The notes beneath the pieces were generated by a model. The model was not told where the DNA came from and searched no databases. It worked only from the letters and a program-made list of their open reading frames with translations. From Prorocentrum cordatum (taxonomy: Eukaryota), in NCBI GenBank assembly GCA_963575745.1, contig CAUYUJ010000203.1, positions 1 to 64,000 of the forward strand: DNA of 64,000 nt, given 5' to 3'. Position numbers and translations under genes: made by a program. This document shows, piece by piece, positions 15,473-42,558 of this stretch. The first letter of the stretch is position 1; each line of letters begins with the position of its first letter.

Positions 15473-15543
15473 AGTTTGCTCCAGCGTCCTAGGAGGGCCG
15501 CCCAGTGCTTGCCGGGAGGCGCCGGCAGACGACAGACCACAGA

Positions 15544-17945: not shown

Positions 17946-18149
17946 GGCACCGACGACCTGGCGCAGGAGCTGAGTTTTGAGCAGGAGCTGTCGCTTCTGC
18001 CCCTGGAGGCCAGCCTACGCGAGGCCTCGCAACGTGGGCGCCTGCAGCTGCTAGAGGCCGGACTGTTTCAGCGCTGCCTGGCCGCGGGCCTGGAAGATCC
18101 CGAGGCCGAACAGGACCAGCCTGACCTTCCTTCCCCCATTGCCAATGCT

Positions 18150-21480: not shown

Positions 21481-21769
21481 AAGCTAGTGAACGGGAGAAC
21501 CGACGGTTGCGTGGGACCCAGAGAAAGGAACAATCGACGAGGATGCCTGGGGATCCAGTGTGGTTGTGCTGACGTTTGGGAATAGGGACCGGGTTCTAAA
21601 TGCATGGATGTGCGTGTGTGCCATACGTGTACGACCGACACCTGCATATTTCGACTGCTGCTACCATGGTTTGAGGCTCAGACCACAATATTCCGACGTG
21701 CCCCCGTTTCGTGTGAAGCGTGAGTGTGCAGACGCTCGTGCTCTGCCAGCGCAGAGCTAGTCGGCCGCC

Positions 21770-25703: not shown

Positions 25704-26545
25704 GTTTGTTGTTTGTTACTTGTTGTTTGTTGTTTGTTGTTTGTTGTTTGTTGTTTGTTGTTTTTTGTTTTTTGTTGTTGTTGTTGTTTGTTGTCGTCGT
25801 CCCACCCGCAACCCGCCCCGCGACCCACCCGCGACCCACCCCGCGACCCACCCGCGACCCACCCGCGACCCACCCGCGACCCACCCCGCGACCCACCCCG
25901 CGACCCACCCGCGACCCACCCGCGACCCACCCGCGACCCACCCGCGACCCACCCCGCGACCCACCCCGCGACCGCGACCCCCGCGACCCACCCGCGACCC
26001 ACCCCGCGACCCGCCCGCGGCCCACCCCGCGACCCACCCGCGACCCACCCGCGACCCACCCGCGACCCACCCGCGACCCACCCGCGACCCACCCCGCGAC
26101 CCACCCGCGACCCACCTTCGACCCAAACCACGTTCAAGGTACAAACCACATTTTCGGCGCCTGCGGCGGGTTTTTTTTGCATTCCTTCCAGGTGGAGAGC
26201 CCGCGACCCACCCCGCGACCAACTCGCGACCAACCCGCGACCCAAACCACGTTCAGGGTACAAACCACATTTTTCGGCGCCTGCGGCGGGCATCTTTTGC
26301 ATTCGTTTCAGGTGGAGAGCCCGCGGCCCACCCGCGACCACGTTCAGGGTACAAACCAATTTTTCGGCGCCTGCGGCGGGCATCTTTTGCATTCGTTCCC
26401 GGTGGAGAACCCGCGGCCCACCCGCGACCATTCCACGTTCAGTGTACAAACCAAATTTTTCGGCGCCTGCGGCGGGCTGCTTTTGCATTCCTTCCAGGTG
26501 GAGGTGGAGAGCCCGCGACCCACCCGCGACCCAAACCACGTTCAT
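25620..26545. repeat. Compound array: (GTT)n, then (CCCACCCGCGA)n, then ~90-120-bp unit x4
   Basis: Visible tandem structure; long unit contains cacgttcagggtacaaacc...ttttcggcgcctgcggcggg. Confidence 0.9.
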
Positions 26546-28773
26546 TGAACAAACCAATGTCGCACAAACGCGGCGGCGGATTTTTGCATGCCGTCTGAGC
26601 CCGCAACGACCTCTTCAAGCCCCGTCCAGCCCGCAACGACCTCTTCAAGCCCGCATCCACACCAGCCCGTCCAGCAACTTTGCCCTGGCGAGTTGCCTTG
26701 ATCAGAGAAGTCGGGGAGCATAAAGTGGAAAAAAGGGATTGCGTTGCCGTTATCTTGGGAAAGGAGGGGGAAGGCAGGAGGAGTAAACAGGGGGCGAGGA
26801 GGACGCGAAATAATAGAGGATGTAAGGAGAATGTGGAGAAAGAGGAGGAGGAGGAGGAGGAGGAGGACGAGGAGGAGCAGACGAGGAGCGAGGAGCAGGA
26901 CGACGAGGAGGGGGGGGGGGGAGGAGGGGGAGGAGGGGGACGGGGAGAGGAGGGGGAGGAGGATGAGGATGGACGGCAATGGGAGGACGATGGTGGAGGC
27001 CGATGAGGGGGTGGACGACAATTGGAGGACGATGATGGAAGGACGAGGGGGGGAGAGGGAGGACGAGGAAGAAGAGGAGGAGGACGAAGTGGAGGAGGAG
27101 GATGACGATGACGATGACGACGAGTTCGAGGAGGAGGAGGAGGAGGAGGAGAGCGCCATCGACAGGGAAGGTGGGGGCCACGAGGTCCGCCGGCTCGACG
27201 ACGCCCGCGTCGCCCGCGCCCGCCCCCTCACTCTTATCTGCAATTGCGGGGTGCTATATACGTAGTTTTATGTGACAAGGGTCGCGCCTCACCCGCCCCC
27301 ATCCGACCACTAGCGCGCAAGTGCGTTCGAACGGTCTCGACATGCGCGCGCGAGAGGCCCGCTGGTCTCGATTGCTATGATTTTGAGAAAAAAACAGAAG
27401 CGATCTTCAAAAATTCGCAAGCGCGCGAGCGCCATTTGTGTTAGTGGTGAAAACTCGAATCATGCCTCAGGCCGTCATCAAGGACAATACGTTGTAAGGC
27501 CGCCGCAAAAAAACATGTTTGTAGATTTGCCCTAGCTGGTTTTGATGTGTTAGTGTTTCCCTTGGTCGTGTTCCAGAGCGTCCGGCGTGAGCTCTTCGTT
27601 CTGTCCCTCCTTTCCCTCGTTGTCTTCGCCGTCATCGTCATCCTCCTTCTCTCCATGGTCCCTCGTTCTCTCCCTCTTTCTAATTTTTGTTGGATCGTCA
27701 TACTCTCGTGCCTTTTCCTCATTCTCCTCCCCCTGCCTACCCTTTCCCATATGAGTCATAATGGTCATCGTCGCCCTTCCCCTCCCTCTCCTCTAGCCTC
27801 AGACCCCTGTCCCCCGAGGAACAGCAATACGCCTGACGATTCCGAGGACGAATGGTGATATCAATGAGGATTGCGATGATCATGCAGGAGTGCATAACTT
27901 GTTTTTTTTCAACCGTTCCCTTCCCCAGTGATGGGCGACATGCCGATTATGAGGGATGAGAAAACTGGACATCTTTTCGCATCCGTCTGCTTGCACATCT
28001 ACCACTCGATCGAACTCCCCGGAGGCGTGGCCCATTCCTGCTTCTCTTCATCCTCATTTTCATCGCCGTCCCCACTTTCATCCTCAACGTCACCGTCAGC
28101 CACCCCCACTATCTTTAACATGCTCGCCTCATTGTCGTTATCTCACATCCCCCATTCTTACACGACGAGGAGTACCTGTTCTGATGATGGAGGGGCAAGT
28201 ATTGACGTTGATGCGTGTGAAAATGGAGTCTCATCCTCACCCTGCCCATTCGCATGCATACTCCATACCAACCCCTCCTGAAAAGGGACGCATGGCGATA
28301 GCGTAGTACTCTGGTAAGGCCACTGAAACTGACGAGGATGCGGCGCAACAGGACGACGGGTTGCATGGGCGTTGGCAAGGTTGGCGTCGGCGTGATGCAC
28401 TTACCGTTTAGGTACTATTGCATTGTGACCGTGTGTATATACCTGGAGGCAAACGGAACACTAGCGCTGGCTGCGAACACCACCACAACAATTGCACGTG
28501 TCAGGGTATGTGGATGAGACCACGGGCTGGGAGCGGATGGGTGGCATCTGCAGATAGCGCAGGGGGTTCGAGAGCGGAGGAGCGCTGAATTCCGAGCCCC
28601 GAGGACGACGAGCACAGGGGCAGGCAGGCGGGAGGGGGGTGTTTGGGAACGGCGGGCGGGGGGTGCGGAGACGCAGATGGGAGGGGGGGGGGGGCGAAGG
28701 CAGCGAGGGGACGGGGAGGAGGAGGAGGAGGAGGAGGAGGAGGAGGAGGAGGAGGAGGAGGAAGAGGAGGAGG

Positions 28774-28948
28774 TGTTAACATGCAAGCGTTCAGGTGACA
28801 GGGGAGGAATAGCAACCCTATTGCCTTTGGCTCAAGTGTTTAACGGCCGAAGCTACTTAGACCTGCTTTGCCGTTCGGGAGTATAAAGGTGACCTATCAT
28901 TATCATTGTTGCCAGGCTCCCGTGCAGAACCCTCCTCGGGGTTTTGCA
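28774..28948 (+). repeat. 5' LTR of element B
   Basis: TGTTAAC...TTTTGCA; 173/175 identical to 39356-39530. Confidence 0.97.
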
Positions 28949-28960
28949 TGGTAGCGGAGC
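28949..28960 (+). promoter_or_regulatory. Primer-binding site TGGTAGCGGAGC (tRNA-iMet type)
   Basis: Directly abuts the LTR-terminal CA. Confidence 0.9.
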
Positions 28961-29062
28961 GCGGTTGCCAGGGCGGCGGCAGCGGCAGCTGCAGCCAGGC
29001 CTGGGCAGGGCGACCCGCCAGTTAATCTCAATGTGCCGGCAGACAGAGATGCATGGGTCAAC

Positions 29063-31580
29063 ATGGATCCGAATCGCTTCAACGACCTGTGCGAGCAAGC
29101 ATACCTAAACGGAGACTTCAGTTACGTTCAGACGGCGCTACTCGCGAACCATTTCGGACTCGCAACGTTCATTAACGAGCGAGTGACACAGGATCGAAGG
29201 GAGGTATCGAACACCGAAGCATTCCAAATGTTACAGAGCTCCCATAAGACCAACATCATGTTGTTAACGATCACAAAAACAAGCGCTGCACTCGAAAGGG
29301 ATGCTCGCAGATTGGTGGAGAGAGTCACCGAGTTGGAGACCAACAGTGAGGTACAAGAAAAGTTGATCGAAAGGTTTGGCCAGCTTTCGGAAGCAATTAA
29401 AAGGAGGAAGTGGAAGCAAGCACGGGAGCGGTAAACCGATAAGCGAATATAAGGCATTACAGGCGCTAAAGAATTTCAGTGGAGAAAGAGCAAAGTTCAG
29501 AGACTGGAACGACAAGTTCTTGAACGCGCTGGCACAAGTGAAGCCGAGTTACCGACCGGCACTGAAGATGCTAAACAAGAAGTTGGAGACGCTTGACGGA
29601 GTCGCGCCAGAGGAGGACGATGATGACATCATACGCATAATGAACGGCCGATTAACTGCAAGTGAGTATCTGAAGGCGAATCAAGCCAAACAGGCAGAAG
29701 ATGACAACAAAGGCGAATACGAGTTTACCGAGGGAGACAAAACTCAGATGGAGGAAGACTTATGGTACATTCTAAACGAGAAACTTGAAGGTGCAGAAGC
29801 CAGAGGAAAATTAAAGGGACTTATGGATGGAGATGGAATCATGGCTTGGCAAAAGGTCTACAAATGGTACTCGGCGGTAACCGGATCGACCCTATCATCA
29901 AAGATGACACATGCCATGAATCCTGAGCCACCCAAGAAGATTACTGACACTGTTACCCGACTTGAGGAGTGGGGCGCATTGGCAGAAAACCTTGAGAACT
30001 ACGGTAAAGATTACTCGCTGCCTCTTCCTTTTAAAGTCACCGCACTCAGGGCCATAATGGTGCACGCGAACGACTGGTTCGACGAATGGCAGCAGGCATG
30101 CTGGCGAACGCCCGACGCGCTTAACATTGACTCATTCCAGAAATTGTATTCAAAGTGCGAAGACTGGGCGCGTAAAAAGAAATTCGACTCATATACGAAA
30201 AATAAAGATGTGATGGACATTGGGAACATCAACGAGATGGGTCAAGGGTCCGAAAATGTTTGGGACCAAACAGGATGGGTTGACGAAGACGGAAACTGGT
30301 GGCCAGAAGATGGATCGTGGAATTACGGGTCCTGGGCCAATGAGAGCGACAGTGGTGAATATGAGGAAATTGACGCCGTAAACAAGCGCAAAGGCAAAGG
30401 AGCGGGCCCCAGGTGTTACAATTGTGGAGGCATGGGCCATTTAGCCAGAAATTGCACAAGACCTAAACAGTTCACCAAAGGAGGTAAAGGTGGCAAGGGA
30501 GGAAAAGGCAAGGGCTACCGGGCCACTTACGGATCCTATGTGAAAGGTGAGATCGGAGGCAAACAAGGTGGTAAAGGAAGTGGCTCGTGGGGTGGAAGTT
30601 ATGGAGGCCGAGGAAAATTCACCCTTCATAGCGAGCGTGAATGTTACAAGTGTGGTGCAAAAGGGCACATCGCCATTAACTGCCCGGGCCCCAAGAAGAC
30701 CGCCAACGAAGTTGAGCAGGAGAGACCTACAGTGAACGCTGAAGGTGAACAAACCACCTCGTTCGGCCAACCGCAGCATGTTCTCAGTGTTATGATGAAG
30801 GAAGCAGTGAACGCGCCGCCAGACCAGCTCGCAACTGAGGAGGTTAACGGGAAATGGGATCTGCCCTATTACGCCAGAAAGAAAATGGCACGTAGCAGCG
30901 CGATGAATTTGAAAAGAATTTACCAGGAACACCAATGCGACGGAGATTGTAATCGCGCTAGCCAATGGGACCGGAGAATAAGTAAAAGCATAAAGCAGGA
31001 AAAAAGTTGGCTGGAGAAGTGCAAGGAAATTGGGCTAATTGAGATGCGGGGCTGTGATCCAGAGATTAACGCGGTGCCACCGCTAAGTGCAACGCATGAG
31101 ACGATCGTGGTTACCGTGGGCTCTGGCGCATATAATACAGTGGGACCCCCCAAAGTTGGCACTCATTTCCCTATTAAACATACGGGCGCGTCAAAGCAGG
31201 GACGACATTATAGTGCAGCGAATGGGACTACAATGAAGAATTATGGTCAACGAGTGATCACAGGTAAAAATGAACATGGGAACGCCGTCAGCATGCCGAT
31301 CCAGGTAGCAGAAGTCAACAAGGTTCTTGGATCTGTCAGAGAGATGGTAAACGCTGGGAATAGAGTTGTGTTTGACAAGGATCTTAACGGGAGATCCCTG
31401 AGCCACATCATGAACAAGACAACTGGTAAGTCCACAACCATTCATGAGAAGAATGACACGTTCCAGTTTAACATTACGGTGCCGAGGGGACCAGCGGAGA
31501 CTGTCAATCCCAGGAGTGAAGTGAGCGCAGCTGAGGGTTTTCCGCGGCCGGGAACCCTGGAGGCGGATCTATTCTACTAA
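29063..31580 (+). pseudogene. gag: Element B gag-protease ORF (one frameshift near 29400)
   Basis: MDPNRF start; NFSGERAKFRDW, DVMDIG, two CCHC knuckles (CYNCGGMGHLARNC, CYKCGAKGHIAINC) with GKG-rich spacer; protease V-G-SGA (catalytic D>G), YSAANG, NRVVFD. Confidence 0.92.
31535..31567 (+). promoter_or_regulatory. Candidate -1 programmed ribosomal frameshift signal (G_GGT_TTT plus hairpin)
   Basis: X_XXY_YYZ heptamer in the gag-frame register, 6-nt spacer, stem CCGGG/CCTGG; the -1 frame is the integrase frame. Confidence 0.7.
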
Positions 31581-31738
31581 GCCCCCCATCACCCGTAAGA
31601 CCAAGCGAAAACTTAAACGTCTTTAATACCGAAGGAGACGAAGGGAGTGAAAGCGGGGGCAACGAGAGTGAGTTGAGCGACGTGGAAGATGTATGCGTGA
31701 GCGATGAAGCGGAGTTACCAAAGAAAGTTTAATGTGAT

Positions 31739-32660
31739 ATGAGGCCCTCGAAAGAGGAAGTTGAGGCGCATAACGCGATACATTTACCTTGCCGAAGCTG
31801 GTGCCCACATTGTGTTAGAGGAAAAGCGCGCAGGTGCAATCACCGTAGACGCAAAAGAGAGGGGAACGGAAACGTGCCAGTGATTTCAATGGACTACATG
31901 TGGCTTAAAGGAAGAAAGGAAGAAGGTGAAAGCGCCAGCAATGGCAATCCAATTTTAGTCATGCGCTGCAGGGAGACCAAATTAACTTGGAGCAGAGTGT
32001 TGATGAAAAAGGGAGTGGACTCATACTCGGTAAAGGTGGGATGTGACGTGATCAGTTTTACCGGATACAAGAAGGTGATACTCAAAAGTGATGGAGAATC
32101 GGCAATCACGGCATTGGCCAATAGGATTAAAGCTTCGTGTGATCTTGACATGGGGGTTGAAGTTAGCCCAGTGGGCGACTCAAAGGCCAACGGTGAAATC
32201 GAGGGAGCCGTTAGGACAGTGCAGGGTCAAGTCAGAACGTTAAAGAGCGCCTTGGATGCCAATTATAAGATTGAATTTGGTGAAAGTCATCAGATAATAC
32301 CTTGGCTGGTGAGCTATGCATCCTCTTTGATTAACAAGTTCACAATAGACACAGATGGGAAGACGGCCCATGAGAGGTGCAGGGGAAGAAAGTTTAACGA
32401 GCAAATTCCTCAGTTTGGTGAGTGTGTCATGTATTTGAAGACACCTGCACACAAGGGCCGTGAGAAGCTTGAAATGAGATGGGAAAGTGGAGTGTTTCTG
32501 GACATAAACGAGAACAGTCAAGAGCTGATTATTGGGACGCCAAATGGGGCAATCAAGGCGCACGAGTTTAAGAGAAAAGGAAGTGATGCGGAAAGATGGA
32601 ACATTGTCGAGGTCACCGAAATGAAGGGGTTACCTTGGCAGCCTGACCCTAGTGCGGCGG
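31739..32660 (+). pseudogene. Element B integrase
   Basis: HNAIHLPCRSWCPHC zinc finger; ISMDY, LKSDGE, ANGEIE catalytic D-D-E; DGKTAHER, FGECV, RWESGVFL. Confidence 0.95.
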
Positions 32661-33600
32661 GAATGGAATTACAGTCTAGGATCATGGTGCCCATGGACCT
32701 ACCAGAGCAAGTGTTAACTGCGCCTGAGACGAAGCCGCTCATTGCACGAGGGATTGCGGTTAAGAAGCACGAGTACTTAAAAATGGGACCGACACCGGGG
32801 CGTTACGGATGTAAATGTCTCGTGAGAGGAGACAAAGAGCACAAACCGCATAGCGCCGATTGCAGGGCTCGAGTTATCGAATGGTTAAAGAAACAAGAGA
32901 GCCCGAATATCCAGGCAAGGCTAGCATCTGCACAACTAAGACTTGAGAGTAAAAGTCGTGCACCAGAAAATCGTGATCAAGAATCAGAAAGTCAAGCGAA
33001 GAAACTGAGGACCAATGCACCGCCTCCGCCGAGCGCTAAAGTTGAGGAAGCTAAGGACGAGTGGATAATAAAAGGAAGCAAAGTTATATGCCAGCACCGA
33101 CGACCGAGGAAATAGTTAGCCTTCCCCACCAATGGTGGGTGTCCTGTAGATTGGGACAAACTTAAGCCCAGAAGATATACTCATGCGATCATGATTGACA
33201 GCGGCAAAATACATGAACACGAAGATGCTTGGTATGGTGAAGAGGGAGACGATCAAACATGGGCTATGGGAAACCCCTTTAACGGTTACTGGACCGGATG
33301 GACCGAGTTCGAAGTGGAAGATGAAGAGATGAAAGATCCCCCAAGTAAACTCATTAAACGAAGAGCAGAGGACGATCATGACGAAGAAGACCAACAGGCA
33401 ACTCAACATCGTCAACTTGATATGGAACAAGATGAAGAAATGTCAGAAGTAAACGACATCAGATTGGGGCTCACATGATGGGATTTGACTCTGAGCTGGT
33501 TGAGTGGTTGACGAGTGGGGAATTGAACGTTGTACATCAATTAAACGAAGTAAGGAGAGCCACCAAGCTCTATGGGGCGTGCCAACACGAGACTCAGGCG

Positions 33601-34262
33601 CACGTGACCGAGGCATATTCGCCGGTGAGGGTTACAGGAATGGCAGAGAAAATGGGATTGATACCGGGTCTAGCAATGGACTTAACGACGCGAGACCAAC
33701 ATGGTAACCCATGGGACTTTAATGTGCCAGCTATGCGAGCGAAAGCGTAACATATTGTCAAATCCAAAGCAACCCTGTTGCTGGTGGTGAGCCCCATGTG
33801 CGCAGCTTTCAGCAGACTTCAGACGTTCAACTTTAACAGATTAGGTGCTGACCGTGTAAAACAGATGTTGGATTACGGGATCAAGCATTTGACGTTTGCA
33901 ATGGAGCTTTGCGAAATTCAACGGCGAAATGGGTTATACTTTCTGTGTGAACACCCCGCAGGGGCAACCAGCTGGGGCACTTCAACAGTGCAACGGTTGC
34001 TCAGGAACAGAGACGTCAAAGTATACGATGGAGATTTGTGCTGTTACGACTTAAAGCAGATAGTCAAAGGTGAAGAGATGTTCATCAAGTAACCGACCAA
34101 GTTCATGACAAACAGTTCAGCCATAGGCCGTGAGTTAAGTTGGAAATGCAAAGGGCAGCATCGACACATGGAGTTAATTGGTGGCGGAAGAACTCACAGA
34201 TCAGAGGTCCTCCCAGACAAATTGCGCCGAGCGATACTGAGAGGACTTGTGAGACAAATGAA
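33601..34262 (+). pseudogene. C5 DNA-methyltransferase-like domain within element B pol, between integrase and RT
   Basis: EAYSPVR (I-like), MDLTT...PWDF, VSPMC (IV), CEHP (VI), DLCCYDL...K*PTKFMTN (VIII), CKGQHRH...LIGGGR; in-frame stops at 33748 and 34090. Confidence 0.7.
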
Positions 34263-34795
34263 GATCGACGGGCGTCAATGGGGGAACATTTAAAGAAGAA
34301 GAAGAAGCAACGAACATGGAAGTCGACGAAGAAGAACAAAGTGAAGCGCAGATAAGCGAGATTAACTGGGCATGTGAACATGAGAGCGAAGATAGGAAGC
34401 ACAAGCACCAGTTAACGTGGACGAGAAGAGATGATGGAACTCAAAGATTGATGCTACCGGGACCAAATGGACCACAATGGAGTTCATGCATTAGGAGAAT
34501 TACCGCTGACATGGACACGGGGAAGATCATCGAGGACAGACCTGCAAACGGGATCACAGGAAGAGAGAGAAGGAGAATGTTCAAGAAGGGACCAGTCAAC
34601 ACTTCCACCACCTTTACATATGAAGCTGTTGGCGAAATTGCTCCACACAAGTGGAAGTGCTGTGCATGTGATCATGAGGGCTGGCTCAAGACGCCTAGCA
34701 CATGTACAGCGTGCGAAAGAATTGGTACATTTAACCCTCTCCCCATGAATATGATCATCGTTGTCCACAAAGAAAATGGAGAGATCACTCAAGCC

Positions 34796-36406
34796 TGGGA
34801 TGATGTCACTGGAAACGAGCTCGATCCTAAATTAACTGTAAAAGCACGCCAAGAAGAAATGAAACAATTCAGAAAACACAAAGTTTACGAGAAAGTGAAG
34901 GAGGAAGTATGCTGGCAAATTACGGGGAAGGCACCCATCGGAGCCAGATGGATAGACATCAACAAAGGAGATGAATTAAGCCCAGACCACAGGTCAAGGC
35001 TAGTGGCCCAACAGGTTAAATACAATTCCAAAGAAAATGATATATTCGCAGCTACACCTCCACTGGAGGCACAGAAACTGCTCTTCTCAATGGCAGTTAC
35101 CGAAGGAGTTGGATTCACGAATGGTGAGCGTGAGAAAGGATTAAAGCTAGCATTCGTTGACATCAAACGAGCTTACTTTTACGCCCCAGCAAAGAAAGAC
35201 ATATTTATCAGGTTACCAGACGAGGACTATGAACCAGGTATGTGCGGAAAACTATTAAAATCAATGCACGGAACCAGGGGCGCCGCGAGCAACTGGGAAG
35301 ACTGTTACATGGACTTTGCTAACGAGGCTGGGTTCAAGAGCGGAATTGCGTCACCATGCGTATTCAAACATGAGAGTCGAGCGTTATGGTTCACAGTTCA
35401 TGGAGATGATTTCACGCTGTTAGGAGGTGATCATGATCTCGACTGGTTTGAAAATAAAATTAAGGATGAGTTTGAAGTAAAAGTGAGAGGACGACTTGGA
35501 CCAGGGAAGGAGGACATGAAGGCGATCAGAATTCTTAACAGGATTGTGGAATGGACGGAGGAAGGATTGAGATATGAGGCAGATCGAAGGCATGCAGAGA
35601 TAATTGTGAAAGAGCTTGAGCTAGAGGGAGTAAAAGTGAGGACTGAAGTGCCCGGTGAGCGCACTCCAGTTGAAGAGGGAGATGAGGTGGAACTTTCGCC
35701 CAACATGACTAAGAGATATCAAGCGTTGACGGCCAGAGCGAATTACTTAGCTCAGGACAGGTCAGACATACAGTATTCTGTAAAGGAACTAGCTAGGACC
35801 ATGTCAAAGCCAACGATGAGGTCTTGGAAGGGTTTGGTCAAGTTAGGAAAGTATTTGAAGTACCGCAGCAGAAGCAGCTATGTGTACCAATATCAGGAAC
35901 AGCCCCGAGAATTAACGATTTGGACCGACACGGATTACGCAGGATGTAAGCGAACCAGGAAGTCTACGAGTGGAGGAGTAGTAATGTGGGATAAACATCT
36001 TATAAAATCTTGGAGCACGACTCAAAGCGTGATCGCATTATCGTCAAGGGAAGCAGAATATTATGGGCTAGTGAAAGGAGGATCAGTGGGTCTAGGACTT
36101 CAGGCAGTACTGAGAGACTTTAACTTGGAAGTTGACATCACCATGAAGAGTGACGCCACGGCTGCGATTGCCATTGCGAGCAGACGAGGCTTGGGGAAAG
36201 TGAGACATATTGAAGTGTGTCAACTGTGGTTACAGCAGAAGGTAAAGGAAGGAGTACTTCGTATTGTGAAAGTAGGGACACATGAGAACACAGCTGATGC
36301 ATTAACCAAGTATGTCAGTCGTGAAAGCATGAGCGCACACCTACGAAACACGTGTCAATGTGCATTAACAGGTAGGCATGGTCTTGCGCCAGCTACAGAA
36401 TGTTGA
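34796..36406 (+). CDS. pol: Element B reverse transcriptase plus RNase H (open frame 34316-36406)
   Basis: AWDDVTG, RWIDINKGD, RSRLVAQ, FAATPPLEA, DIKRAYF, TVHGDDF, RILNR; RNase H TDTDYAG, STSGG, EAEYY, SDATAA, RHIEV, ADALTK. Confidence 0.97.
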   Translation, partial: WDDVTGNELDPKLTVKARQEEMKQFRKHKVYEKVKEEVCWQITGKAPIGARWIDINKGDELSPDHRSRLVAQQVKYNSKENDIFAATPPLEAQKLLFSMAVTEGVGFTNGEREKGLKLAFVDIKRAYFYAPAKKDIFIRLPDEDYEPGMCGKLLKSMHGTRGAASNWEDCYMDFANEAGFKSGIASPCVFKHESRALWFTVHGDDFTLLGGDHDLDWFENKIKDEFEVKVRGRLGPGKEDMKAIRILNRIVEWTEEGLRYEADRRHAEIIVKELELEGVKVRTEVPGERTPVEEGDEVELSPNMTKRYQALTARANYLAQDRSDIQYSVKELARTMSKPTMRSWKGLVKLGKYLKYRSRSSYVYQYQEQPRELTIWTDTDYAGCKRTRKSTSGGVVMWDKHLIKSWSTTQSVIALSSREAEYYGLVKGGSVGLGLQAVLRDFNLEVDITMKSDATAAIAIASRRGLGKVRHIEVCQLWLQQKVKEGVLRIVKVGTHENTADALTKYVSRESMSAHLRNTCQCALTGRHGLAPATEC

Positions 36407-36494
36407 TATTCGCAGCTCATTTCTGTCAAGCAAGCTGCAGCGATTAAAAGTCTTCTCCACCCATTACCTCTTACTCTTGGGCGTGAACGAAGGC

Positions 36495-38948
36495 ATGGCG
36501 GCTCCCCAGGTCAACCTCACCATCAACGGCTCCATGGTCGACCAGAGCCCGGCTGGGGATGGACCGGTTACGCGTGAGAACCTCAACCGCCGTGTTGACG
36601 ACATCGCCCACGTTGCTCGCGCGTTTACCGTGACCCTCGCTAACATGGCGATTAACTTTCACGGAGCCTACGACAAACACGTTGACGAGGTGCAAAGGGC
36701 CGCTGATGACATGGCGAAGAGGATCGAGGACTTAACGCGGCAGAACGATGGGTTGATCCAGGCCAGTGACGACGTCAACGAGAATCTCCAGAGGGCGCAA
36801 GCAGAAATTAACGCTCTGATGGCGACAATTACGGAGCTGAACATCCAGAATCGTGACTCGGGGGTTAACACGGCGGAGAATGCAACCAAGTACAGGCGCA
36901 TCAACGACAACATTGGTTACCTCCTGAACACCGCCAAACGCCTTACCGAGAACATCACGCCCCTGCAGGACTTCGAGGGCAAACGAGATGCGGCACTACG
37001 CATGTTGGTGGGAGTTACCGAGAGACTCGAAGGATTACAGAGGTTCTTGAATGACCCGATCAGTTCTTCGGTTACCATCATCCCGCAGGTGCCTCCGCCG
37101 TTACCCGAGCTGCCCCCAACGGCAGTGGCCGCCAAGGCGCCTCCCACTGCAGTCAACGCGGCGGCCGAGGCTAGCAAGCCTCTGGCCCGAGCTGCCGCGG
37201 CCTCGAGTGCACCCCCGGCTCAGGGCTTTACCGGTACCACGCCCAAGACCGGAGGGTTCGGTCGATCCGTGTCGCCGAATAAGATCCCGCAGTCAACGGC
37301 ACCTCAACCTGTTTACAAGAAAGCACCCAAGGCCATGCATGAGCGTAAACGGGAACTGGAAGAGTTACTGCAGATCGGCATGAAGATGGATGAAGACCGT
37401 GCGCAGAGCAGTCAACGTGACGAAGCACCAAAAGGTCCTGCCCCGGTGGTGAACGTGAGGACGCCCAAGCCGCCTCCTCCAGGCCTTGGCGAGTCAAGTG
37501 CATCGAGCAGTGTTAGCGGCATGAATCCCCCGCCCCCAGTGCCCAAGAAGTTATCGACCCAGCGCGTCCCTCCACCGCAGCCTCAAGCTGTTAACCGTAC
37601 GGACGAGCAGCTTGCGGCATACTCGCGGAATGTTGCCAGGGCCGTGCACCGCCCACTGTGCCACGTCAACGGCCACATGCCTATGGTGAACGACAGGTGC
37701 GAGGACCACGACGTCAACTACAAGGTGGAGCCCGACCCCAGGGAAGTAGTCGCGTTAACGATGAAGACGCGCGACAACTGGCGCAGGTTCGAAGACAACT
37801 TCGTCGGACATGTGGCGAAAGCGGGGTTGACGACTCCTGGTGGTCGATCTATTCATGGCAACACGGGGCGGGAACTTAACGAGTTCGATGAAGTGTTCGT
37901 CGACATTTACGGGCAGCACTCTTACGGCTTCCTCGGCTATTCAGTGTTGAAGGGCCCGTGCAGCTGGATATCGCAGTTGACGGAGAAAGAGTTGGCCAAG
38001 CACGACGAGTGGGTTGACGCGGTCGGACACGTACAATCCCTGTTCGACGACGAGTACGTGCCGCCAATCCACGTTGACGATCTCCACCCAGTGTGGTTCG
38101 ACGTTCACAGCTGCCCAGATACACGGGTTTACGTCAACAAGGTACCAGAAATGAATGAGAAGCAGCTTAACGGCCTTCTCCTAACGTGGGCAGGGATGCT
38201 GCCCCACGGCAACCCCACCGTGGTCTCCGTTAAGCACTTGGTGGAAGACACTTACGGGCCGCACGGTTACATCTCAACTGGGGTTACCGTGATCCGGTTT
38301 GCGACGCATGACCTTGCCAAGCTCTATTGCCGTTACATGAACGGGCTCCAGGTGTATTACCGCAACTACTTCATCGAGGACCTCGAGGTCAGGAGCGCCG
38401 AGGAGTTAAAGGGCAGCATCAACAAGCCTCCAGTTTACTGGCACCAGACCATCTTAGACGTCGCTCTTAACGATCAGGGGTCCATGAGGGCACTTTACCG
38501 TGACAACTGGCCGGCTGATCACATCACCGAGCGTAAAAGTGACCACCGCGAGAAGCTCTGCTGGTTTGGATGGTTGCCGTGCGACGACTTCCCCAACTGG
38601 CTTACCGACCCGGCCTGGACTGTGAACCCATTTACCGGAGTTGCGGTCGAAGAGCACCTCCGTAACAATCCAGGTGGTAAACCTCTGTTGAAGGCTCCCC
38701 ACGCCAGTTACTGGAGGGCCATCGGCACTTACCACAACATTGTTGACGGGTCCATCAAGAGCTTTGACGAGGGGTGCTGGCTCGACGACGAGGAGCGCAT
38801 TAACGCGTACTTGGACACCGACTATTACAGCCAGATGCAGGCCCTTAACAGGGTGTCGCCCTACACGGCGGCCAGCGTGGGGCATCGTGGTTTACCGAGG
38901 TCCAGGGGCGCACGCGCTCCGTCAGCGAGGCGCCCGCGCCGCTCGTAA
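36495..38948 (+). CDS. Element B 3' accessory ORF (817 aa from the likely ATG): coiled coil, Pro-rich linker, RRM-like domain, basic tail
   Basis: Uninterrupted ORF between pol stop and 3' LTR with GC3-rich codon use; heptad region about 36570-37050; RRM-like segment 38121-38399 (RVYVNKVP...TGVTVIRF...AKLYCRYMNG...DLEVRSA). Confidence 0.85.
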   Translation: MAAPQVNLTINGSMVDQSPAGDGPVTRENLNRRVDDIAHVARAFTVTLANMAINFHGAYDKHVDEVQRAADDMAKRIEDLTRQNDGLIQASDDVNENLQRAQAEINALMATITELNIQNRDSGVNTAENATKYRRINDNIGYLLNTAKRLTENITPLQDFEGKRDAALRMLVGVTERLEGLQRFLNDPISSSVTIIPQVPPPLPELPPTAVAAKAPPTAVNAAAEASKPLARAAAASSAPPAQGFTGTTPKTGGFGRSVSPNKIPQSTAPQPVYKKAPKAMHERKRELEELLQIGMKMDEDRAQSSQRDEAPKGPAPVVNVRTPKPPPPGLGESSASSSVSGMNPPPPVPKKLSTQRVPPPQPQAVNRTDEQLAAYSRNVARAVHRPLCHVNGHMPMVNDRCEDHDVNYKVEPDPREVVALTMKTRDNWRRFEDNFVGHVAKAGLTTPGGRSIHGNTGRELNEFDEVFVDIYGQHSYGFLGYSVLKGPCSWISQLTEKELAKHDEWVDAVGHVQSLFDDEYVPPIHVDDLHPVWFDVHSCPDTRVYVNKVPEMNEKQLNGLLLTWAGMLPHGNPTVVSVKHLVEDTYGPHGYISTGVTVIRFATHDLAKLYCRYMNGLQVYYRNYFIEDLEVRSAEELKGSINKPPVYWHQTILDVALNDQGSMRALYRDNWPADHITERKSDHREKLCWFGWLPCDDFPNWLTDPAWTVNPFTGVAVEEHLRNNPGGKPLLKAPHASYWRAIGTYHNIVDGSIKSFDEGCWLDDEERINAYLDTDYYSQMQALNRVSPYTAASVGHRGLPRSRGARAPSARRPRRS

Positions 38949-39347
38949 ACGGTGACAGGTGACTGGCATGCTTTTCTTTTACGCTATCCCTCATCTCCCC
39001 TCTCAGCCCGGCTTAACAATCGCGTTGCAGTGGCTTATTGAGCTGAATCTGTGTGCATGTGCATCTTTTATAGTTACCGCAGGTATTGGCGCATAAAAAG
39101 CGAAAACAATCAAAATCATATAAATGCTAGCCTGCCGTGTGAACTTTGGATGCTACATTTAAACTCGTAACTGCTTGAATGTTTACTTGAGCTCATGTTG
39201 CATGTCTGAGAGACGTGGTGTTCGTGAACGTTGTTACGAGATATTTCGAATTCGGCAACGTAGCGATGTATGCGCAGCCTGTTGCTTGATTCAACCTGTC
39301 TTTGCGTTTATAGGCACCTCCCCGTCAGCCAATGCGGACTGGCGTCC

Positions 39348-39355
39348 GAGGGGGG
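39348..39355 (+). promoter_or_regulatory. Polypurine tract GAGGGGGG of element B
   Basis: Immediately precedes the 3' LTR TG. Confidence 0.8.
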
Positions 39356-39530
39356 TGTTAACATGCAAGCGTTCAGGTGACAGGGGAGGAATAGCAACCC
39401 TATTGCCTTTGGCTCAAGTGTTTAACGGCTGAAGCTACTTAGACCTGCTTTGCCGTTCGGGAGTATAAAGGTGACCTATCATTATCATTGTTGCCAGGCT
39501 CCCGTGCAGAACCCTCTTCGGGGTTTTGCA
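39356..39530 (+). repeat. 3' LTR of element B
   Basis: Direct repeat of 28774-28948. Confidence 0.97.
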
Positions 39531-40439
39531 GGAGGAGGAGGCGGAGGTGGCGGTGGCGGAGGCGGAGGCGGAGGCGGAGGCGGAGGCGGAGGAGGAGGAG
39601 AAGGAGGTGGACGAGGAGGAGGAGGAGGAGGAGGAGGGAGGAGGAGGAGGAGGAGGAGGAGTACGATGGAGGAGGGAGGAGGAGGAGGAGGAGGAGGAGG
39701 AGGAGGAGGAGGCGGCGGAGGCGGAGGCGGTTGCGGATACGGAGGCGAATGAGGGGGAGGATGAGGCGGAGGATGAGGAAGAGGAAGGGGAGCACTACTA
39801 TTAACATCAATAATAAGAGTAATACCAGTTCGACTCATAAGAAGACTAGTAGTAAGAGGAAGAGGAGGAGGAGGAGGAGGAGGAGGAGGAGGAGGAGGAG
39901 GAGGAGGAGGTGAGGAGGGAGGAGGAGGAGGAGGGGGGGAGGAGGAGGGAGGAGGAGGAGGAGGAGGAGGAGAGGAGGAGGAGGAGAGGAGGGAGGAGGG
40001 AGGAGGGAGGAGGAGGAGGGAGGAGGGAGGAGAGGAGGAGGAGGGGGAGGAGGAGGAGAGGAGGAGGAGGAGGAGGAGGAGGAGAGAGGAGGGGGAGAGA
40101 GAGGAGGAGGAGGAGGAGAGGAGGAGGGAGGAGGAGGAGGAGAGGAGGAGGAGGAGAGAGGGAGGAGGAGGAGGAGGAGGAGGAGGAGAGGAGGAGGAGG
40201 AGGAGGAGGAGGAGGGAGGAGGAGGAGGAGGAGGAGGAGAGGAGGAGGAGGAGAGGAGGAGGGAGGAGGGGAGGAGGAGGAGGAGGAGGAGGAGGAGGAG
40301 GAGGAGGAGGAGAGGAGGAGGAGGAGGAGGAGGAGGAGAGGAGGAGGGAGGAGAGGGAGGAGGAGAGGGGGATGGGGGAGGGGGAGGGGACGAGGAGGAG
40401 GAGGAGGAGGAGGAGGAGGAAGAGGAGGAGGAGGCGGCC

Positions 40440-40489
<50 letters not shown>

Positions 40490-40510
40490 GGGGGAGGAGG
40501 AGGGGAAGGA
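39531..40510. repeat. Long (GGA)n-derived purine tract; target of element B, left part at 28715-28773
   Basis: Directly visible. Confidence 0.9.
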
Positions 40511-40653
40511 CGAGTGAGGATTGAGGAGATGGGGCGGGGGCGGGTGGGATGGAGGCGAGGGGGCCTAGCACCCGTCTTTCCTCCAGTCCCCTCCCGATCT
40601 TGTCCCGAGAGGCGAGCACTACGGCGAGCCAGACAGCGAGCCAATCACGGCAG

Positions 40654-40752
40654 GGCATGAAGAAGTTCTTGCGAGCCGGCTCTGCCGCGCCGCAAGCGTT
40701 TTCCACCGAGAAGCTTACCAAGCTGAAGTCGCAGAAGGCGCAGTCTTCGGAG
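40654..40752 (+). CDS. Candidate host-gene exon (GMKKFLRAGSAAPQAFSTEKLTKLKSQKAQSSE)
   Basis: CAG|G acceptor, 99 nt phase 0, GAG|GC donor, GC3-rich codons. Confidence 0.55.
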
Positions 40753-42558
40753 GCCCAGAAGCAGGGAAAGGGGGCGACGTGGCGGGGGCAAGGACTGGCG
40801 ACGGGTGATGACTAGGAGGGAGGAGGGGGCAGGGAGAAGGAGGTGGCCGAGGATGAGCATGCAGGGGGGGTGGGGAGGAGAGGGGAGAGGGTGGAAACGA
40901 AATGGAGGAGGAGCCGCAGGAGGGAGGACGGGGGAAAAGAGCAGGAGGAGGAGGAGTAGGAGGAGTTAGAGGAGGACGAGGATCATAATGTTGAGGGGTG
41001 GGGGGGATTGAGGAGGATTGAGGAGGGCGAAAAGAAAGGGGGAGAAGAAGGATATATCGTGATGTAGGGGTAGGTCGCGACGCTTTCCTTGATTCAAGCC
41101 AGAGCTAACCCTCTACATCTGCCTGTCCTGGCGGTCAGGCGAAAGCTGACGAACTGCCTCGCGCGCGAACTTGACTCTGCAGTAAAGCTGAAGACCTGCA
41201 AACGTTCACGCATAAGCTGATCCCTGCGAAGCGAAAATGGGGCTTGCACGACCCCCGTTGCAGCCACAGTGCCTGTTGCCACTGCCCGCCGTCCCTCGCG
41301 GACTGATCACCCGGGTTTGAGAGCTGAAGGCGGCCCAGGCTGACTACGTGGCCTCGGCTGACCTGGGTCCGAGTTTCTTCGGGCCAGCGTGTCTCCAGCC
41401 TTCGCAGACCCCAGACGTCTTAGAAAAAATCGTTGCGACGGACGTTTGCTCACGCTGAGCTGCGCACGCTTTGGTTTTTTGGCTCAAGGCCAAGCCGAGC
41501 GCACGCTGACTGGAAAAGGTACTCGCCTTTCATCCCACATCCTTCTACTCGTTCCACTGCGATCGTCATGTCAGAGGATTTACCGTTAGTCGCTGTGACA
41601 AGAATAGAAGATCCATCCAGAGGCCAGTTTCGGGTCTTGTGGCAATCACAAGTCGGCCTGGGGCCAGAAGCCGTCCCCTGTGAGGAGTGCTGAGGTCCAG
41701 GGGCCACATGTCTCAGAACGCCGATCGCCGAAGTGTTCGCTGGGAGACGACCTCATCGTCGACACCAAGCCATGTCAAGTCGTGCCAAACACACCCTCAC
41801 CGGACAGAGTAATGCAACTCCTGTTGCCCGCGAGGGTCCACTGGAACCCTCGCACACGCCCCGAATCGCTCCAGAAGGCCCGTTAAACTTCGATCGTCGA
41901 CGACTGCGACGAAAGTTGCATTACTCGTACAGGGGGGCAACAATTCGCACCCTGAGGCGACATGGTACAGTGGTGGGGCCCGATGCCCAGGGACCAGCCG
42001 ATGTGCCCTTTTGTGCACGCAGTGGAAGTCCATACCAAGAACCCTGCTTGCCCCCAGTGTGCCTCGGGTTTCCTGGGTTTCGGTGCTTTTGCCATGGGAA
42101 GCGTGACGTTCCCACACCAAGAATGAATGGACGTCCTGGGGTCTCAGGGTTGGGTTTCTTGTGAAACGGTTATTGTGGTCGAGCTCCTACTGCATGAGCT
42201 CTTTCAACCTGTCCCCGAAAAGGCCCATGGGCCCTTTGGGGGACAGCCTCCTGGCTCCCGGCTCCCAGCTCAGCTCAGCTCAGCAAGGGTGCGAGTATGT
42301 CTTTTTTGCCTTCATCTTCCGCGGCCAGGCCGAAACCCGATGGAACTGGGTTTGCCGCCCTCCTTCCGAGACTTCCAGCTGCTTCAATTTTGTTGATGCG
42401 TGGGCCCCGGAGGTCTGGACCATTTCCCTGCAGTTCTGCATCCTGAAAAACGTGCTTGACGACGGTCCCGAGGCCCGGCGAGGGCCCCTGGAGGCTGAAG
42501 ACGGCCAACATTTGCCGCTCCGTCTTTGTGTCGGAGCGTCGGATCTCTGGGCTCTGAA

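What the first reader, a model, noticed from the sequence alone, without database searches (positions are those of the whole stretch)
36495..38948. Copia element carries a large intact 3' ORF with coiled-coil / Pro-rich / RRM architecture in the env position
Seen: an uninterrupted 817-aa ORF between the RNase H stop (36406) and the 3' LTR, followed by a ~400-nt AT-richer 3' UTR. Its composition shifts sharply from A-rich gag-pol to C/G-rich codons. It has a long N-terminal heptad region, a Pro/Ala/Ser linker, then RVYVNKVPE (RNP2-like), TGVTVIRF (RNP1-like) and ATHDLAKLYCRYMNGLQV...DLEVRSA (helix 2/beta 4 pattern of RRMs), and an Arg-rich tail. No signal peptide or TM helix is evident, so it is not a classical Env. 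Established: LINE-1 ORF1p is a coiled-coil trimer with an RRM that chaperones its RNA; extra 3' ORFs in copia elements (e.g. Sireviruses) are usually TM/coiled-coil proteins of unknown function. Inference: an accessory RNA-binding/condensate or anti-silencing protein of this element, possibly undescribed.
Basis: partly seen in the sequence, partly recalled or inferred. Interest (0 to 1): 0.85.

Follow-up and report, generated by a model that had tools for sequence, protein, structure and literature searches.

The report
Copia retrotransposon carrying an RRM-fold gene
A young copia-type retrotransposon carries, after its polymerase gene, an intact third gene for an unnamed conserved protein built from a coiled coil, a floppy proline-rich linker and a large domain with an RNA-recognition-motif fold at its core, a kind of passenger or helper gene not described for such elements.

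Summary
Window 36495-38948 (+) is an uninterrupted 817-codon ORF, the longest open frame in the window. It lies between the RT-RNase H stop (36404-36406) and the PPT/3' LTR of a 10.76-kb Ty1/copia element whose 175-nt LTRs match at 173 of 175 positions. GC3 jumps from 0.46-0.53 in gag/INT/RT to 0.715 in the ORF and falls again in the 3' UTR.

The protein belongs to an unnamed family with no Pfam hit. About 64 environmental relatives match the C-terminal domain, and three full-length ones share the same three-part layout.

- Residues 60-121 show strong heptads.
- Residues 196-400 are a basic, indel-rich Pro/Ala linker.
- Residues 401-790 are 67-68% identical to relatives without any gap.

An AlphaFold model (pTM 0.77) gives a beta-alpha-beta-beta-alpha-beta core at residues 544-625. 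Structure searches match it to RRM domains or chains of RNA-protein complexes (Z 6.3-7.7). There is no TM helix or signal peptide, so it is not an Env.

RNA binding is not shown. RNP1 lacks two of its aromatic residues and the globular domain is acidic. Whether relatives are also LTR-linked could not be tested. This copy's pol is broken, and the codon-usage break leaves capture of a host gene open.

Verdict: a real, probably undescribed RRM-based additional ORF of a copia element. Its function is only inferred.

The parts
28774..28948 (+). 5' LTR, 175 nt, TG...CA ends
   Evidence: Direct repeat with 39356-39530, 173 of 175 identical
28949..28960 (+). PBS-like TGGTAGCGGAGC directly after the LTR
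   Evidence: Read from the sequence. The likeness to tRNA-iMet-type copia primer binding sites is recalled, not tested.
29568..31580 (+). gag-like ORF with two CCHC zinc knuckles
   Evidence: PF00098, E 5e-12, two stretches
31739..33115 (+). Integrase-like ORF
   Evidence: 38-40% identical over about 415 aa to the parts of P0100 and P0091 that lie upstream of their RT. Only a weak Pfam SH3_retrovirus hit.
33601..34260 (+). Decayed extra domain 'X' between INT and RT, with in-frame stops at 33748-33750 and 34090-34092, and out of frame with INT and RT
   Evidence: tblastn to P0162 residues 41-253, 29% identity, E 2e-20; translation; frames
34316..36406 (+). RT-RNase H ORF (copia type)
   Evidence: PF07727 RVT_2, E 6.5e-12. 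1337 relatives among 8000 scored candidates, the best 93% identical.
36451..36494 (+). Pyrimidine-rich tract (36451-36478) followed by AG at 36491-36492, just upstream of the ATG; a possible splice or trans-splice acceptor
   Evidence: Read from the sequence. The function is inference only.
36495..38948 (+). Additional ORF, 817 aa plus stop
   Evidence: full-length relatives P0002-P0004
36657..36971 (+). Heptad / coiled-coil region (residues 55-159; strongest at 60-121)
   Evidence: Single register from residue 55 to about 155; 0 of 2000 shuffles for residues 60-121. AF2 helices 27-121, 126-159, 163-186, at low confidence.
37080..37694 (+). Basic Pro/Ala/Ser-rich linker (residues 196-400)
   Evidence: 18% Pro, pI 10. 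36-40% identity with 54-73 gap columns against relatives.
37695..38864 (+). Conserved globular C-terminal domain (residues 401-790)
   Evidence: 67-68% identity and 0 gap columns against P0002-P0004. AF2 pTM 0.77. No Pfam family at E<=10.
38112..38477 (+). RRM-fold core (residues 540-661; beta1 544-548 through beta4 619-625)
   Evidence: AF2 topology. Foldseek and VIA-align matches are RRM chains or chains of RNA-protein complexes. Profile hits to hnRNP M and HuR RRMs, E 0.006-0.29.
38865..38945 (+). Arg-rich C-terminal tail (residues 791-817)
   Evidence: pI 12, 8 basic residues of 27. The R..S.RRP.R pattern is kept in distant relatives.
38949..39347 (+). AT-richer 3' untranslated region
   Evidence: GC 0.375-0.47. 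No A-run of 6 or more, and no direct repeat of 9 nt or more with the ORF's 5' flank.
39348..39355 (+). Polypurine tract GAGGGGGG abutting the 3' LTR
   Evidence: Read from the sequence
39356..39530 (+). 3' LTR
   Evidence: Flanked by GGAGG on both sides of the element, inside a GGA microsatellite.

Best explanation
A recently inserted Ty1/copia element (28774-39530) carries a sense-strand additional ORF between pol and the polypurine tract. The ORF encodes a member of an unnamed, conserved protein family.

Shown:
- An N-terminal heptad coiled coil.
- A roughly 200-residue basic, fast-evolving Pro/Ala-rich linker.
- A roughly 390-residue slowly evolving globular domain whose core is predicted to be an RRM fold, wrapped by family-specific N- and C-terminal extensions.
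- A conserved Arg-rich tail.

Inferred:
- The protein self-associates through the coiled coil.
- It uses the RRM-based domain together with the basic linker and tail to bind RNA, most plausibly the element's own transcript. It would then act in export, packaging, translation or protection of that RNA. In that sense it would work like LINE-1 ORF1p or the Cer1 CERV protein without being related to them.
- It would be expressed from a sub-genomic message made by cis- or spliced-leader trans-splicing at the AG 3-4 nt upstream of its ATG.
- The codon-usage break says the module was acquired from a host-like, GC3-rich source and did not co-evolve for long with the A-rich gag-pol.
For: Placement inside the element:
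- The ORF starts 88 nt after the pol stop and ends about 400 nt before the PPT and 3' LTR, on the same strand.
- The LTRs match at 173 of 175 positions.

A real gene under constraint:
- Three full-length relatives (841-863 aa) share the start, the three-part layout and the tail.
- The C domain is 67-68% identical with 0 gap columns. The linker is 36-40% identical with 54-73 gap columns.
- 75 hits at E<=1e-3 in the 50%-identity representative library, 64 of them on the C domain, reaching down to 23-30% identity.

Coiled coil: 0 of 2000 shuffles reach the observed heptad periodicity for residues 60-121.

RRM fold:
- AF2 pTM 0.77. In 10-residue blocks over residues 540-659, pLDDT is 71-96, with a beta1-alpha1-beta2-beta3-alpha2-beta4 order.
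- The best Foldseek PDB rows are RRMs, TM up to 0.74 on the target.
- The 50 listed VIA-align rows are RRM domains or chains of RNA-protein complexes, Z 6.3-7.7, with 73-99 aligned residues.
- The family profile hits the hnRNP M and HuR RRMs on RNP1-alpha2-beta4.
- The most conserved columns across the family are the RRM signature residues A608, G617 and Y622.

Not a nested retrogene: no poly(A) remnant, no flanking direct repeat and no full spliced-leader relic at the ORF borders.
Against: RNA binding is unproven.
- RNP1 is TGVTVIRF, with no aromatic residue at positions 3 and 5.
- The globular domain is acidic (pI 5.3; RRM part 6.2).
- Pfam gives no family for the window protein even at E<=10. 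Only 2 of 68 family members touch RRM_1, best E 0.023.
- Foldseek E-values are all above 1e-3, and VIA-align Z below 8 is in the range that tool calls middling.

Linkage to the element is shown in this one copy only.
- The copy's pol is interrupted by two in-frame stops and two frame changes between INT and RT, so it is not an autonomous element.
- With only about 1% LTR divergence, an intact 2.4-kb ORF is not in itself evidence of selection in this copy.
- GC3 of 0.715 against 0.46-0.53 fits a captured host gene.
- Pol relatives are far more numerous than ORF relatives.
- A second, divergent copia-like element in the same window has no such ORF.
Confidence: 0.45

Rival explanations
1. Transduced host gene carried as a passenger. 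A host, intronless or mRNA-derived gene for a coiled-coil/RRM protein was picked up by template switching during reverse transcription. It now rides in a non-autonomous copia lineage without serving the element.
For: The GC3 and CpG discontinuity is confined to the ORF (GC3 0.715 against 0.46-0.53; CpG o/e 1.05 against 0.73-0.88), and the ORF's GC of 0.586 is close to the window's overall GC of 0.593. The copy's pol is broken. Pol relatives number 1337 or more among 8000 scored candidates, against 75 ORF relatives. A stand-alone 475-aa relative, P0010, has the C domain only. The review of plant aORFs notes that transduced genes are usually in sense orientation and present in one or a few copies (PMC7264820, part 1 of 3 read).
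Against: The composition shift starts and ends at the coding borders, with no UTR, poly(A) or spliced-leader remnant. The ORF fills exactly the slot where conserved sense aORFs of LTR elements sit. Close relatives exist as clusters of several near-identical sequences (3-8 members) and as fragments 83-85% identical, which looks like a multi-copy family. All full-length relatives are uninterrupted ORFs.
Confidence: 0.3
2. Element-serving accessory protein whose RRM is a protein-protein interaction module (a pseudo-RRM, as in UHM-type or eIF3b-type RRMs) rather than an RNA binder. It would, for example, tether a host factor or Gag, and the basic linker and tail would supply any nucleic-acid contact or nuclear import.
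For: RNP1 is degenerate and the globular domain is acidic. The RRM is embedded in a 390-residue single unit (pTM 0.77) whose conserved N- and C-terminal extensions could cover the sheet. Among the VIA-align matches are RRMs solved in protein complexes: eIF3b, SETD1A, Hsh49-Cus1, raver1-vinculin.
Against: The RNP2 aromatic residue (Y546) and the terminal RNP1 aromatic residue (F602) are kept across the family. RNP1 variants with Val or Cys at position 3 occur in the HuR RRM2 and hnRNP M chains that the profile hits. That both are genuine RNA binders is recalled, not tested here.
Confidence: 0.15
3. Env-like or fusogenic protein, the classical reading of an ORF in the env position.
For: Only the position between pol and the 3' LTR, and the presence of a coiled coil.
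Against: There is no hydrophobic N-terminus and no segment near TM hydropathy (best 19-residue mean 1.14). No viral structure matches at E<=1e-3. The conserved domain has an intracellular-type RRM fold.
Confidence: 0.02

Closest known systems
LINE-1 ORF1p (coiled-coil trimer, RRM, CTD)
   Same: A retroelement-encoded, non-enzymatic protein with an N-terminal heptad coiled coil followed by an RRM-fold domain and a further C-terminal part. [quoted passage not shown]
   Different: No sequence relation: there is no Pfam hit of any kind on the C domain at E<=10. Here the gene lies 3' of pol in an LTR element that already has a Gag with two zinc knuckles. A 200-residue Pro-rich linker separates the coiled coil from the RRM. 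The globular domain is acidic and about 390 residues long. Trimer formation is untested.
Sense additional ORFs between pol and 3' LTR of LTR retrotransposons (aORF-3S / 'env-like', e.g. Athila, Bagy2, Sirevirus)
   Same: Same slot and orientation, and the likely need for a spliced sub-genomic message (PMC7264820, part 1 of 3 read).
   Different: Those are characterised by transmembrane segments, and none is seen here. An RRM fold is not mentioned for any aORF in the parts of the papers I read.
CERV of the C. elegans Ty3/gypsy element Cer1
   Same: A novel, element-specific protein encoded by a spliced message of an LTR retrotransposon. It associates with and is needed for export of the genomic RNA (PMC10309623, abstract). 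This is the kind of role proposed here.
   Different: Different superfamily of element.
Non-envelope ORF3s of bdelloid rotifer LTR elements (GDSL esterase, DEDDy exonuclease, 'CC' and 'TM' types) and the DRBM-like 5' aORFs of Tekay elements
   Same: They show that LTR elements repeatedly capture diverse third genes, including coiled-coil and RNA-binding-like ones (PMC5408684 and PMC11728184, passages).
   Different: Other folds (esterase, exonuclease, dsRBD-like), other hosts and element lineages. 'RRM' has 0 occurrences in the main text of either paper.
Cellular RRM proteins (hnRNP M RRM, HuR/ELAV RRM2, CELF1)
   Same: Best sequence-profile and structural matches. The RNP1-alpha2-beta4 signature ..G....RF....A......NG... 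aligns.
   Different: E-values are only 0.006-0.3. The RRM here carries a long beta2-beta3 hairpin and is fused into a much larger domain with no known counterpart. It is below every Pfam RRM threshold.

Membership tests
Ty1/copia LTR retrotransposon (the carrier element) | RVT_2-type reverse transcriptase with integrase upstream of RT | tested here: met
   PF07727, E 6.5e-12, at 34316-36403. The INT-like ORF 31739-33115 aligns to the pre-RT part of the copia polyproteins P0100 and P0091.
Ty1/copia LTR retrotransposon (the carrier element) | Terminal direct repeats with TG..CA, PBS after the 5' LTR, PPT before the 3' LTR, target-site duplication | tested here: met
   175-nt LTRs, 173 of 175 identical, TG..CA ends; TGGTAGCGGAGC at 28949; GAGGGGGG at 39348. 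The 5-bp GGAGG duplication is uninformative because the site is a GGA microsatellite.
Ty1/copia LTR retrotransposon (the carrier element) | Intact gag-pol (autonomy) | tested here: not met
   Two in-frame stops and two frame changes between INT and RT, plus a further frame change near 29400.
RRM (RNA recognition motif) fold | beta1-alpha1-beta2-beta3-alpha2-beta4 sandwich matching solved RRMs | tested here: met
   AF2 model elements at residues 544-625, with pLDDT 71-96 in 10-residue blocks over residues 540-659. VIA-align: the 50 listed rows are RRM domains or chains of RNA-protein complexes, Z 6.3-7.7, rmsd 1.8-4.4 for most. Foldseek top rows are RRMs but with E>=5.5e-3. This rests on a predicted model, not an experimental one.
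RRM (RNA recognition motif) fold | RNP2 and RNP1 consensus with three exposed aromatic residues (consensus recalled, not from a call) | tested here: inconclusive
   RNP2 VYVNKV keeps Tyr546. RNP1 TGVTVIRF keeps Gly and the final Phe but has Val at positions 3 and 5. Similar variants appear in the HuR and hnRNP M chains that were hit.
RRM (RNA recognition motif) fold | Sequence membership in Pfam RRM_1 or related models at the gathering score | tested here: not met
   0 families at E<=10 for the window's C domain. 2 of 68 family members match RRM_1, best E 0.023.
RRM (RNA recognition motif) fold | Binds RNA | not testable with these tools
   Needs EMSA, CLIP or similar.
LINE-1 ORF1p / Transposase_22 | Sequence similarity to the ORF1p RRM/CTD models | tested here: not met
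   No Pfam family at all at E<=10. No ORF1p chain among the PDB sequence hits at E<=10.
LINE-1 ORF1p / Transposase_22 | Coiled-coil-mediated trimer | tested here: inconclusive
   Heptads are present. The oligomeric state is not established by any search here.
LINE-1 ORF1p / Transposase_22 | Encoded upstream of the RT of a non-LTR element | tested here: not met
   Encoded downstream of pol in an LTR element.
Env-like aORF of LTR retrotransposons / retroviral Env | Signal peptide and transmembrane anchor | tested here: not met
   Best 19-residue hydropathy mean is 1.14, and the N-terminus is polar.
Conserved sense aORF (aORF-3S) of an LTR-retrotransposon family | Located between pol and the 3' LTR in sense orientation | tested here: met
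   36495-38948 (+), between 36406 and 39348.
Conserved sense aORF (aORF-3S) of an LTR-retrotransposon family | Present in all or most copies of the element family | not testable with these tools
   No genome is held. No DNA of relatives was found in three collections.

The most novel reading that the evidence does not exclude
A lineage of dinoflagellate copia elements has recruited and kept, as a true third gene, an ORF1p-like RNP-forming protein: coiled-coil multimer, disordered basic linker, RRM-based RNA-binding domain and Arg-rich tail. This would be a convergent reinvention, inside an LTR retrotransposon that already has a Gag, of the LINE-1 strategy or of a Rev/CERV-type RNA-export factor. 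In this reading the gene is expressed by spliced-leader trans-splicing of the element's own transcript.
Probability: 0.2. Interest if true: 0.8.

Novelty: new variant of a known kind. Interest (0 to 1): 0.5.

Why it matters
Third genes of LTR retrotransposons are known, but most have no assigned fold or function, and the classical expectation is an envelope-like membrane protein. This one is a large, clearly constrained, non-membrane protein with a recognisable RNA-recognition-motif core and a coiled coil. It sits in the most abundant retrotransposon superfamily of symbiotic dinoflagellates, as stated in PMC5890265 (passage), and members of that superfamily are reported as heat-activated (PMC5776459).

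If the gene serves the element, it would show that LTR elements can add an ORF1p- or Rev-like RNA handler to Gag. That would be notable in organisms where gene expression is said to be controlled mainly after transcription (recalled). It would also define a new protein family with dozens of environmental members.

If it is a captured host gene, it is a clean example of retrotransposon-mediated gene transduction in a dinoflagellate. Either outcome can be tested with genome-wide tBLASTn and long-read RNA data.

Tried and rejected
- Whole-genome search for other copies: no genome is held for this window.
- Other copy inside the window: none (tblastn). A second, divergent copia-like element at about 15.5-21.6 kb has no relative of the ORF.
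- DNA context of relatives: nothing found. I ran two scans of metagenome contigs (A1; A4), one of viral contigs and one of genome contigs.
- Fused pol-ORF proteins: the 'longer' search found none. The tool itself calls this weak evidence.
- Contig-length matching: I looked for RT relatives on the same contigs as the ORF relatives by comparing longest-contig lengths (4430, 11786, 4359 nt). There was no match among the 120 listed of 1337 RT hits. This is inconclusive.
- Sequencing runs: no RNA holder was listed.
- Homotrimer of residues 20-195 with complex prediction: no verdict, score 0.00, the partner's own fold uncertain, and the alignment not used by the tool.
- AF2 of the N-terminal 200 residues gave only a low-confidence all-helical model (pLDDT 59, pTM 0.31), so it was not used for fold search.
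- BFVD viral structure library: no match at E<=1e-3, and the few best rows are again RRM proteins of giant viruses.
- ESM Atlas: all scores 0.84 or below, so leads only; several are RRM clusters.
- Full spliced-leader relic (a 21-nt motif recalled from memory, up to 3 mismatches): 0 matches in the window. An 11-nt part occurs in both LTRs and at 41478, 3 matches against 1.34 expected, which is not significant.
- Nested-retrogene idea: no poly(A) remnant and no flanking repeat of 9 nt or more.
- DNA-methyltransferase idea for domain X: I had misremembered the literature. The paper says the Symbiodinium Copia superfamily lacks DNMT domains (PMC5890265). Neither Pfam nor PDB sequence search names the domain.
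I therefore make no claim that they have a new fold.
- The search of earlier findings: four look-ups returned nothing.
Full report
**1. The observation**

Window 36495-38948 (+) is an uninterrupted ORF of 817 codons plus stop. Its stop-to-stop frame of 859 codons is the longest open frame in the window in any of the six frames. From the ORF's own base composition, 817 open codons have a chance of about 4e-13. An in-frame ATG at 36378 would add 39 residues overlapping the end of pol, but the three full-length relatives begin at the position of the 36495 Met.

**2. The carrier element**

- Two 175-nt direct repeats, 28774-28948 and 39356-39530, differ at 2 positions and have TG..CA ends.
- TGGTAGCGGAGC follows the 5' LTR directly.
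- GAGGGGGG precedes the 3' LTR.
- Both outer flanks read GGAGG, but the site is a GGA microsatellite, so this says little.

Inside the element lie:
- a gag-like ORF with two CCHC knuckles (PF00098, E 5e-12);
- an integrase-like ORF, 38-40% identical to the pre-RT part of copia polyproteins P0100 and P0091;
- an RVT_2 RT-RNase H ORF (PF07727, E 6.5e-12).

The order INT before RT, together with RVT_2, makes it Ty1/copia.

This copy is not autonomous. Between INT (frame 1, ending 33112) and RT (frame 1, from 34262) lies about 1.15 kb with a decayed extra domain in another frame and two in-frame stops. RT relatives are very numerous in environmental data: 1337 at E<=1e-3 among the 8000 candidates scored. 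They include a 93%-identical NCBI protein and a 45%-identical protein named by its source as from Polarella glacialis. A dinoflagellate host is therefore my inference, not an established fact.

**3. Composition**

| Region | GC3 | CpG o/e |
|---|---|---|
| gag | 0.53 | 0.88 |
| INT | 0.50 | 0.86 |
| RT | 0.46 | 0.73 |
| ORF | 0.715 | 1.05 |

In 120-nt windows the rise begins at about 36480 and the fall at about 38950. The 3' UTR returns to GC 0.375-0.47. The ORF therefore has a different compositional history from the rest of the element, and the break coincides with the coding borders.

**4. The protein family**

The word-indexed search found three full-length relatives (841-863 aa), 55-57% identical overall.

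The exhaustive search of the 50%-identity representatives found 75 proteins at E<=1e-3, of which 37 were at <=1e-10 and 12 at <=1e-30. Of these 75:
- 64 match the C-terminal domain;
- 8 match only the N-terminal region;
- 1 (P0015) matches residues 343-417;
- 2 (P0051, P0074) match only the Pro-rich linker and are probably compositional.

Most are fragments. P0009 (876 aa, 33% identical) has the same N-helical/linker/C-domain layout. P0010 (475 aa, 30%) is essentially the C domain alone. Fragments 83-85% identical also exist.

Against P0002-P0004:

| Region | Residues | Identity | Gap columns |
|---|---|---|---|
| C domain | 401-790 | 67-68% | 0 |
| N region | 1-195 | 47-53% | 1-3 |
| Linker | 196-400 | 36-40% | 54-73 |

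That domain-wise pattern is what purifying selection on a folded protein gives. It is the real evidence for function. The intactness of this particular copy is not, because the LTRs are only about 1% diverged.

**5. Domains**

*N-terminal region.* Residues 60-121 carry L/I/V/M at 71% of a/d positions against 7% elsewhere, and 0 of 2000 shuffles reach this. One register holds from about residue 55 to 155. AF2 with 13 sequences predicts helices 27-121, 126-159 and 163-186, but at low confidence (pLDDT 59).

*Linker.* It is 18% Pro and has pI 10.

*C domain.* Pfam gives nothing at E<=10. AF2 on residues 380-817 used a 68-row alignment: the window, 3 hits, and 64 of the 75 hits. The 11 N-terminal-only or linker-only hits were dropped. 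The model has mean pLDDT 71.2 and pTM 0.77. In protein numbering its core elements are:
- beta1 544-548
- alpha1 555-563
- beta2 576-585
- beta3 592-602
- alpha2 605-615
- beta4 619-625

Fold and profile searches:
- Foldseek against the PDB has no row at E<=1e-3, but its best rows are RRMs. The best is hnRNP A18 at 5.5e-3, and TM on the target reaches 0.74.
- VIA-align against 48,161 representative chains lists 50 rows, all RRM domains or chains of RNA-protein complexes. Z is 6.3-7.7 with 73-99 aligned residues, spanning model residues about 161-282. The tool warns that Z below 8 is middling.
- The family's sequence profile independently hits RRMs: hnRNP M at E 0.006-0.013, then CELF1, HuR and Sex-lethal. 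The alignment covers exactly RNP1-alpha2-beta4.
- The three nearly invariant columns of the 16-sequence alignment are A608, G617 and Y622, in alpha2, the NG turn and beta4.

I accept the RRM fold as the best reading. The flanking sub-domains (401-540, helical; 660-790) were not folded separately, so I make no claim about them.

**6. Limits on the RNA-binding inference**

- RNP2 keeps Tyr546 and RNP1 keeps Gly596 and Phe602. RNP1 positions 3 and 5 are Val here and mostly aliphatic in relatives.
- The globular domain has pI 5.3 and the RRM part 6.2. The basic charge sits in the linker (pI 10) and the tail (pI 12).
- HuR RRM2 (RGVAFIRF) and hnRNP M (KGCGVVKF), as printed, show that such RNP1 variants occur in natural RRMs.
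- A protein-binding pseudo-RRM remains a live rival.

**7. What it is not**

- Not an Env. The best 19-residue hydropathy mean is 1.14, the N-terminus is polar, and there is no viral structural match.
- Not a retrogene that landed in the element after integration. There is no poly(A) remnant, no flanking repeat of 9 nt or more, and no spliced-leader relic at its 5' border.

**8. What could not be settled**

Whether relatives are LTR-linked is the key question, and I could not test it.
- No genome is held.
- No DNA of relatives was found in metagenome, viral or prokaryote-genome collections.
- No fused pol-ORF protein was found (weak evidence).
- No sequencing run was listed.

**9. Mechanism proposed (inferred)**

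A coiled-coil multimer presents several RRM-based domains and basic tails to RNA, most plausibly the element's own transcript. This would add an export, packaging or protection function to Gag.

Expression would need a sub-genomic message. A pyrimidine-rich tract (36451-36478) and an AG at 36491-36492 lie just upstream of the ATG, which fits a cis- or trans-splice acceptor.

The GC3 break implies acquisition from a GC3-rich, host-like source. Whether that happened once and recently (a passenger) or long ago with retention (an accessory gene) is the open point. My odds:
- 0.45 accessory RNA-binding protein
- 0.30 passenger host gene
- 0.15 accessory protein with a protein-binding RRM
- the remainder, other readings

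**10. Literature**

Six searches were run (and the reads below). They found no description of an RRM-fold gene in an LTR retrotransposon, nor of a third ORF in dinoflagellate copia elements.
- Chen et al. describe Symbiodinium copia elements of about 10 kb with INT, RT, RNase H and LTRs only (PMC5776459, main text read, part 1 of 2). Their supplements were not read and may show more.
- de Mendoza et al. state that the Copia superfamily is the most abundant in Symbiodinium and lacks DNMT domains (PMC5890265, passages).
- The review of plant aORFs (PMC7264820, part 1 of 3), the bdelloid ORF3 paper (PMC5408684, passages) and the sunflower aORF paper (PMC11728184, passages) list TM/env-like, coiled-coil, GDSL, DEDDy and dsRBD-like third genes. 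'RRM' occurs 0 times in the main text of the latter two.
- CERV of Cer1 (PMC10309623, abstract) and LINE-1 ORF1p (PMC6428221, abstract in the listing) are the closest functional analogues.

The library lacks most subscription journals, so 'not in print' is provisional.

**11. Verdict**

It is best filed as a new variant of a known kind: an additional sense ORF of an LTR retrotransposon. It belongs to an unnamed protein family. Its function and its fidelity to the element family remain to be shown.

Noticed in passing
window 33601-34260 (+): An extra domain lies between integrase and RT of the copia element. It is 29% identical (E 2e-20) to residues 41-253 of P0162, which its source names as a partial Polarella glacialis protein and in which the domain sits directly before the RT. 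It has conserved SP.C..FS and YFL.EHP...SW-type motifs. In the window it is decayed: stops at 33748 and 34090, and out of frame with INT and RT. Neither Pfam nor PDB sequence search names it.
   Followed up: partly
window ~15493-21570 (+): A second, very divergent copia-like element: gag with a CCHC knuckle (15493-17220), a weak match to the same extra domain (17324-17866), and RVT_2 (18972-20819). It has no relative of the 3' ORF.
   Followed up: partly
window 28826-28836, 39408-39418, 41478-41488 (+): The word TTTGGCTCAAG stands in both LTRs and once more at 41478, preceded there by a T-run. As I recall, it equals the 3' part of the dinoflagellate spliced leader. Three matches against 1.34 expected is not significant, and the full leader has no match with up to 3 mismatches.
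   Followed up: partly
window 28690-28773 and 39531-40660; also 26817-27180: The element is inserted in a long GGA/GAG-type purine microsatellite (GC skew up to 0.98). On the minus strand this produces long spurious Leu/Ser/Pro-rich open frames, for example 39846-40658.
   Followed up: no
window 26014-26560 (+): Short CCCGCGACCCA-type repeats sit next to three to four copies of a repeat unit of about 90-120 nt that is 64-92% identical between copies.
   Followed up: no
window 28955-29431 (+): A 159-codon open frame lies between the PBS and gag, in a different frame from gag and overlapping the start of the gag frame by 65 nt. It may be a separate leader ORF or a frameshifted gag N-terminus. 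It has no Pfam family below E 0.05.
   Followed up: no
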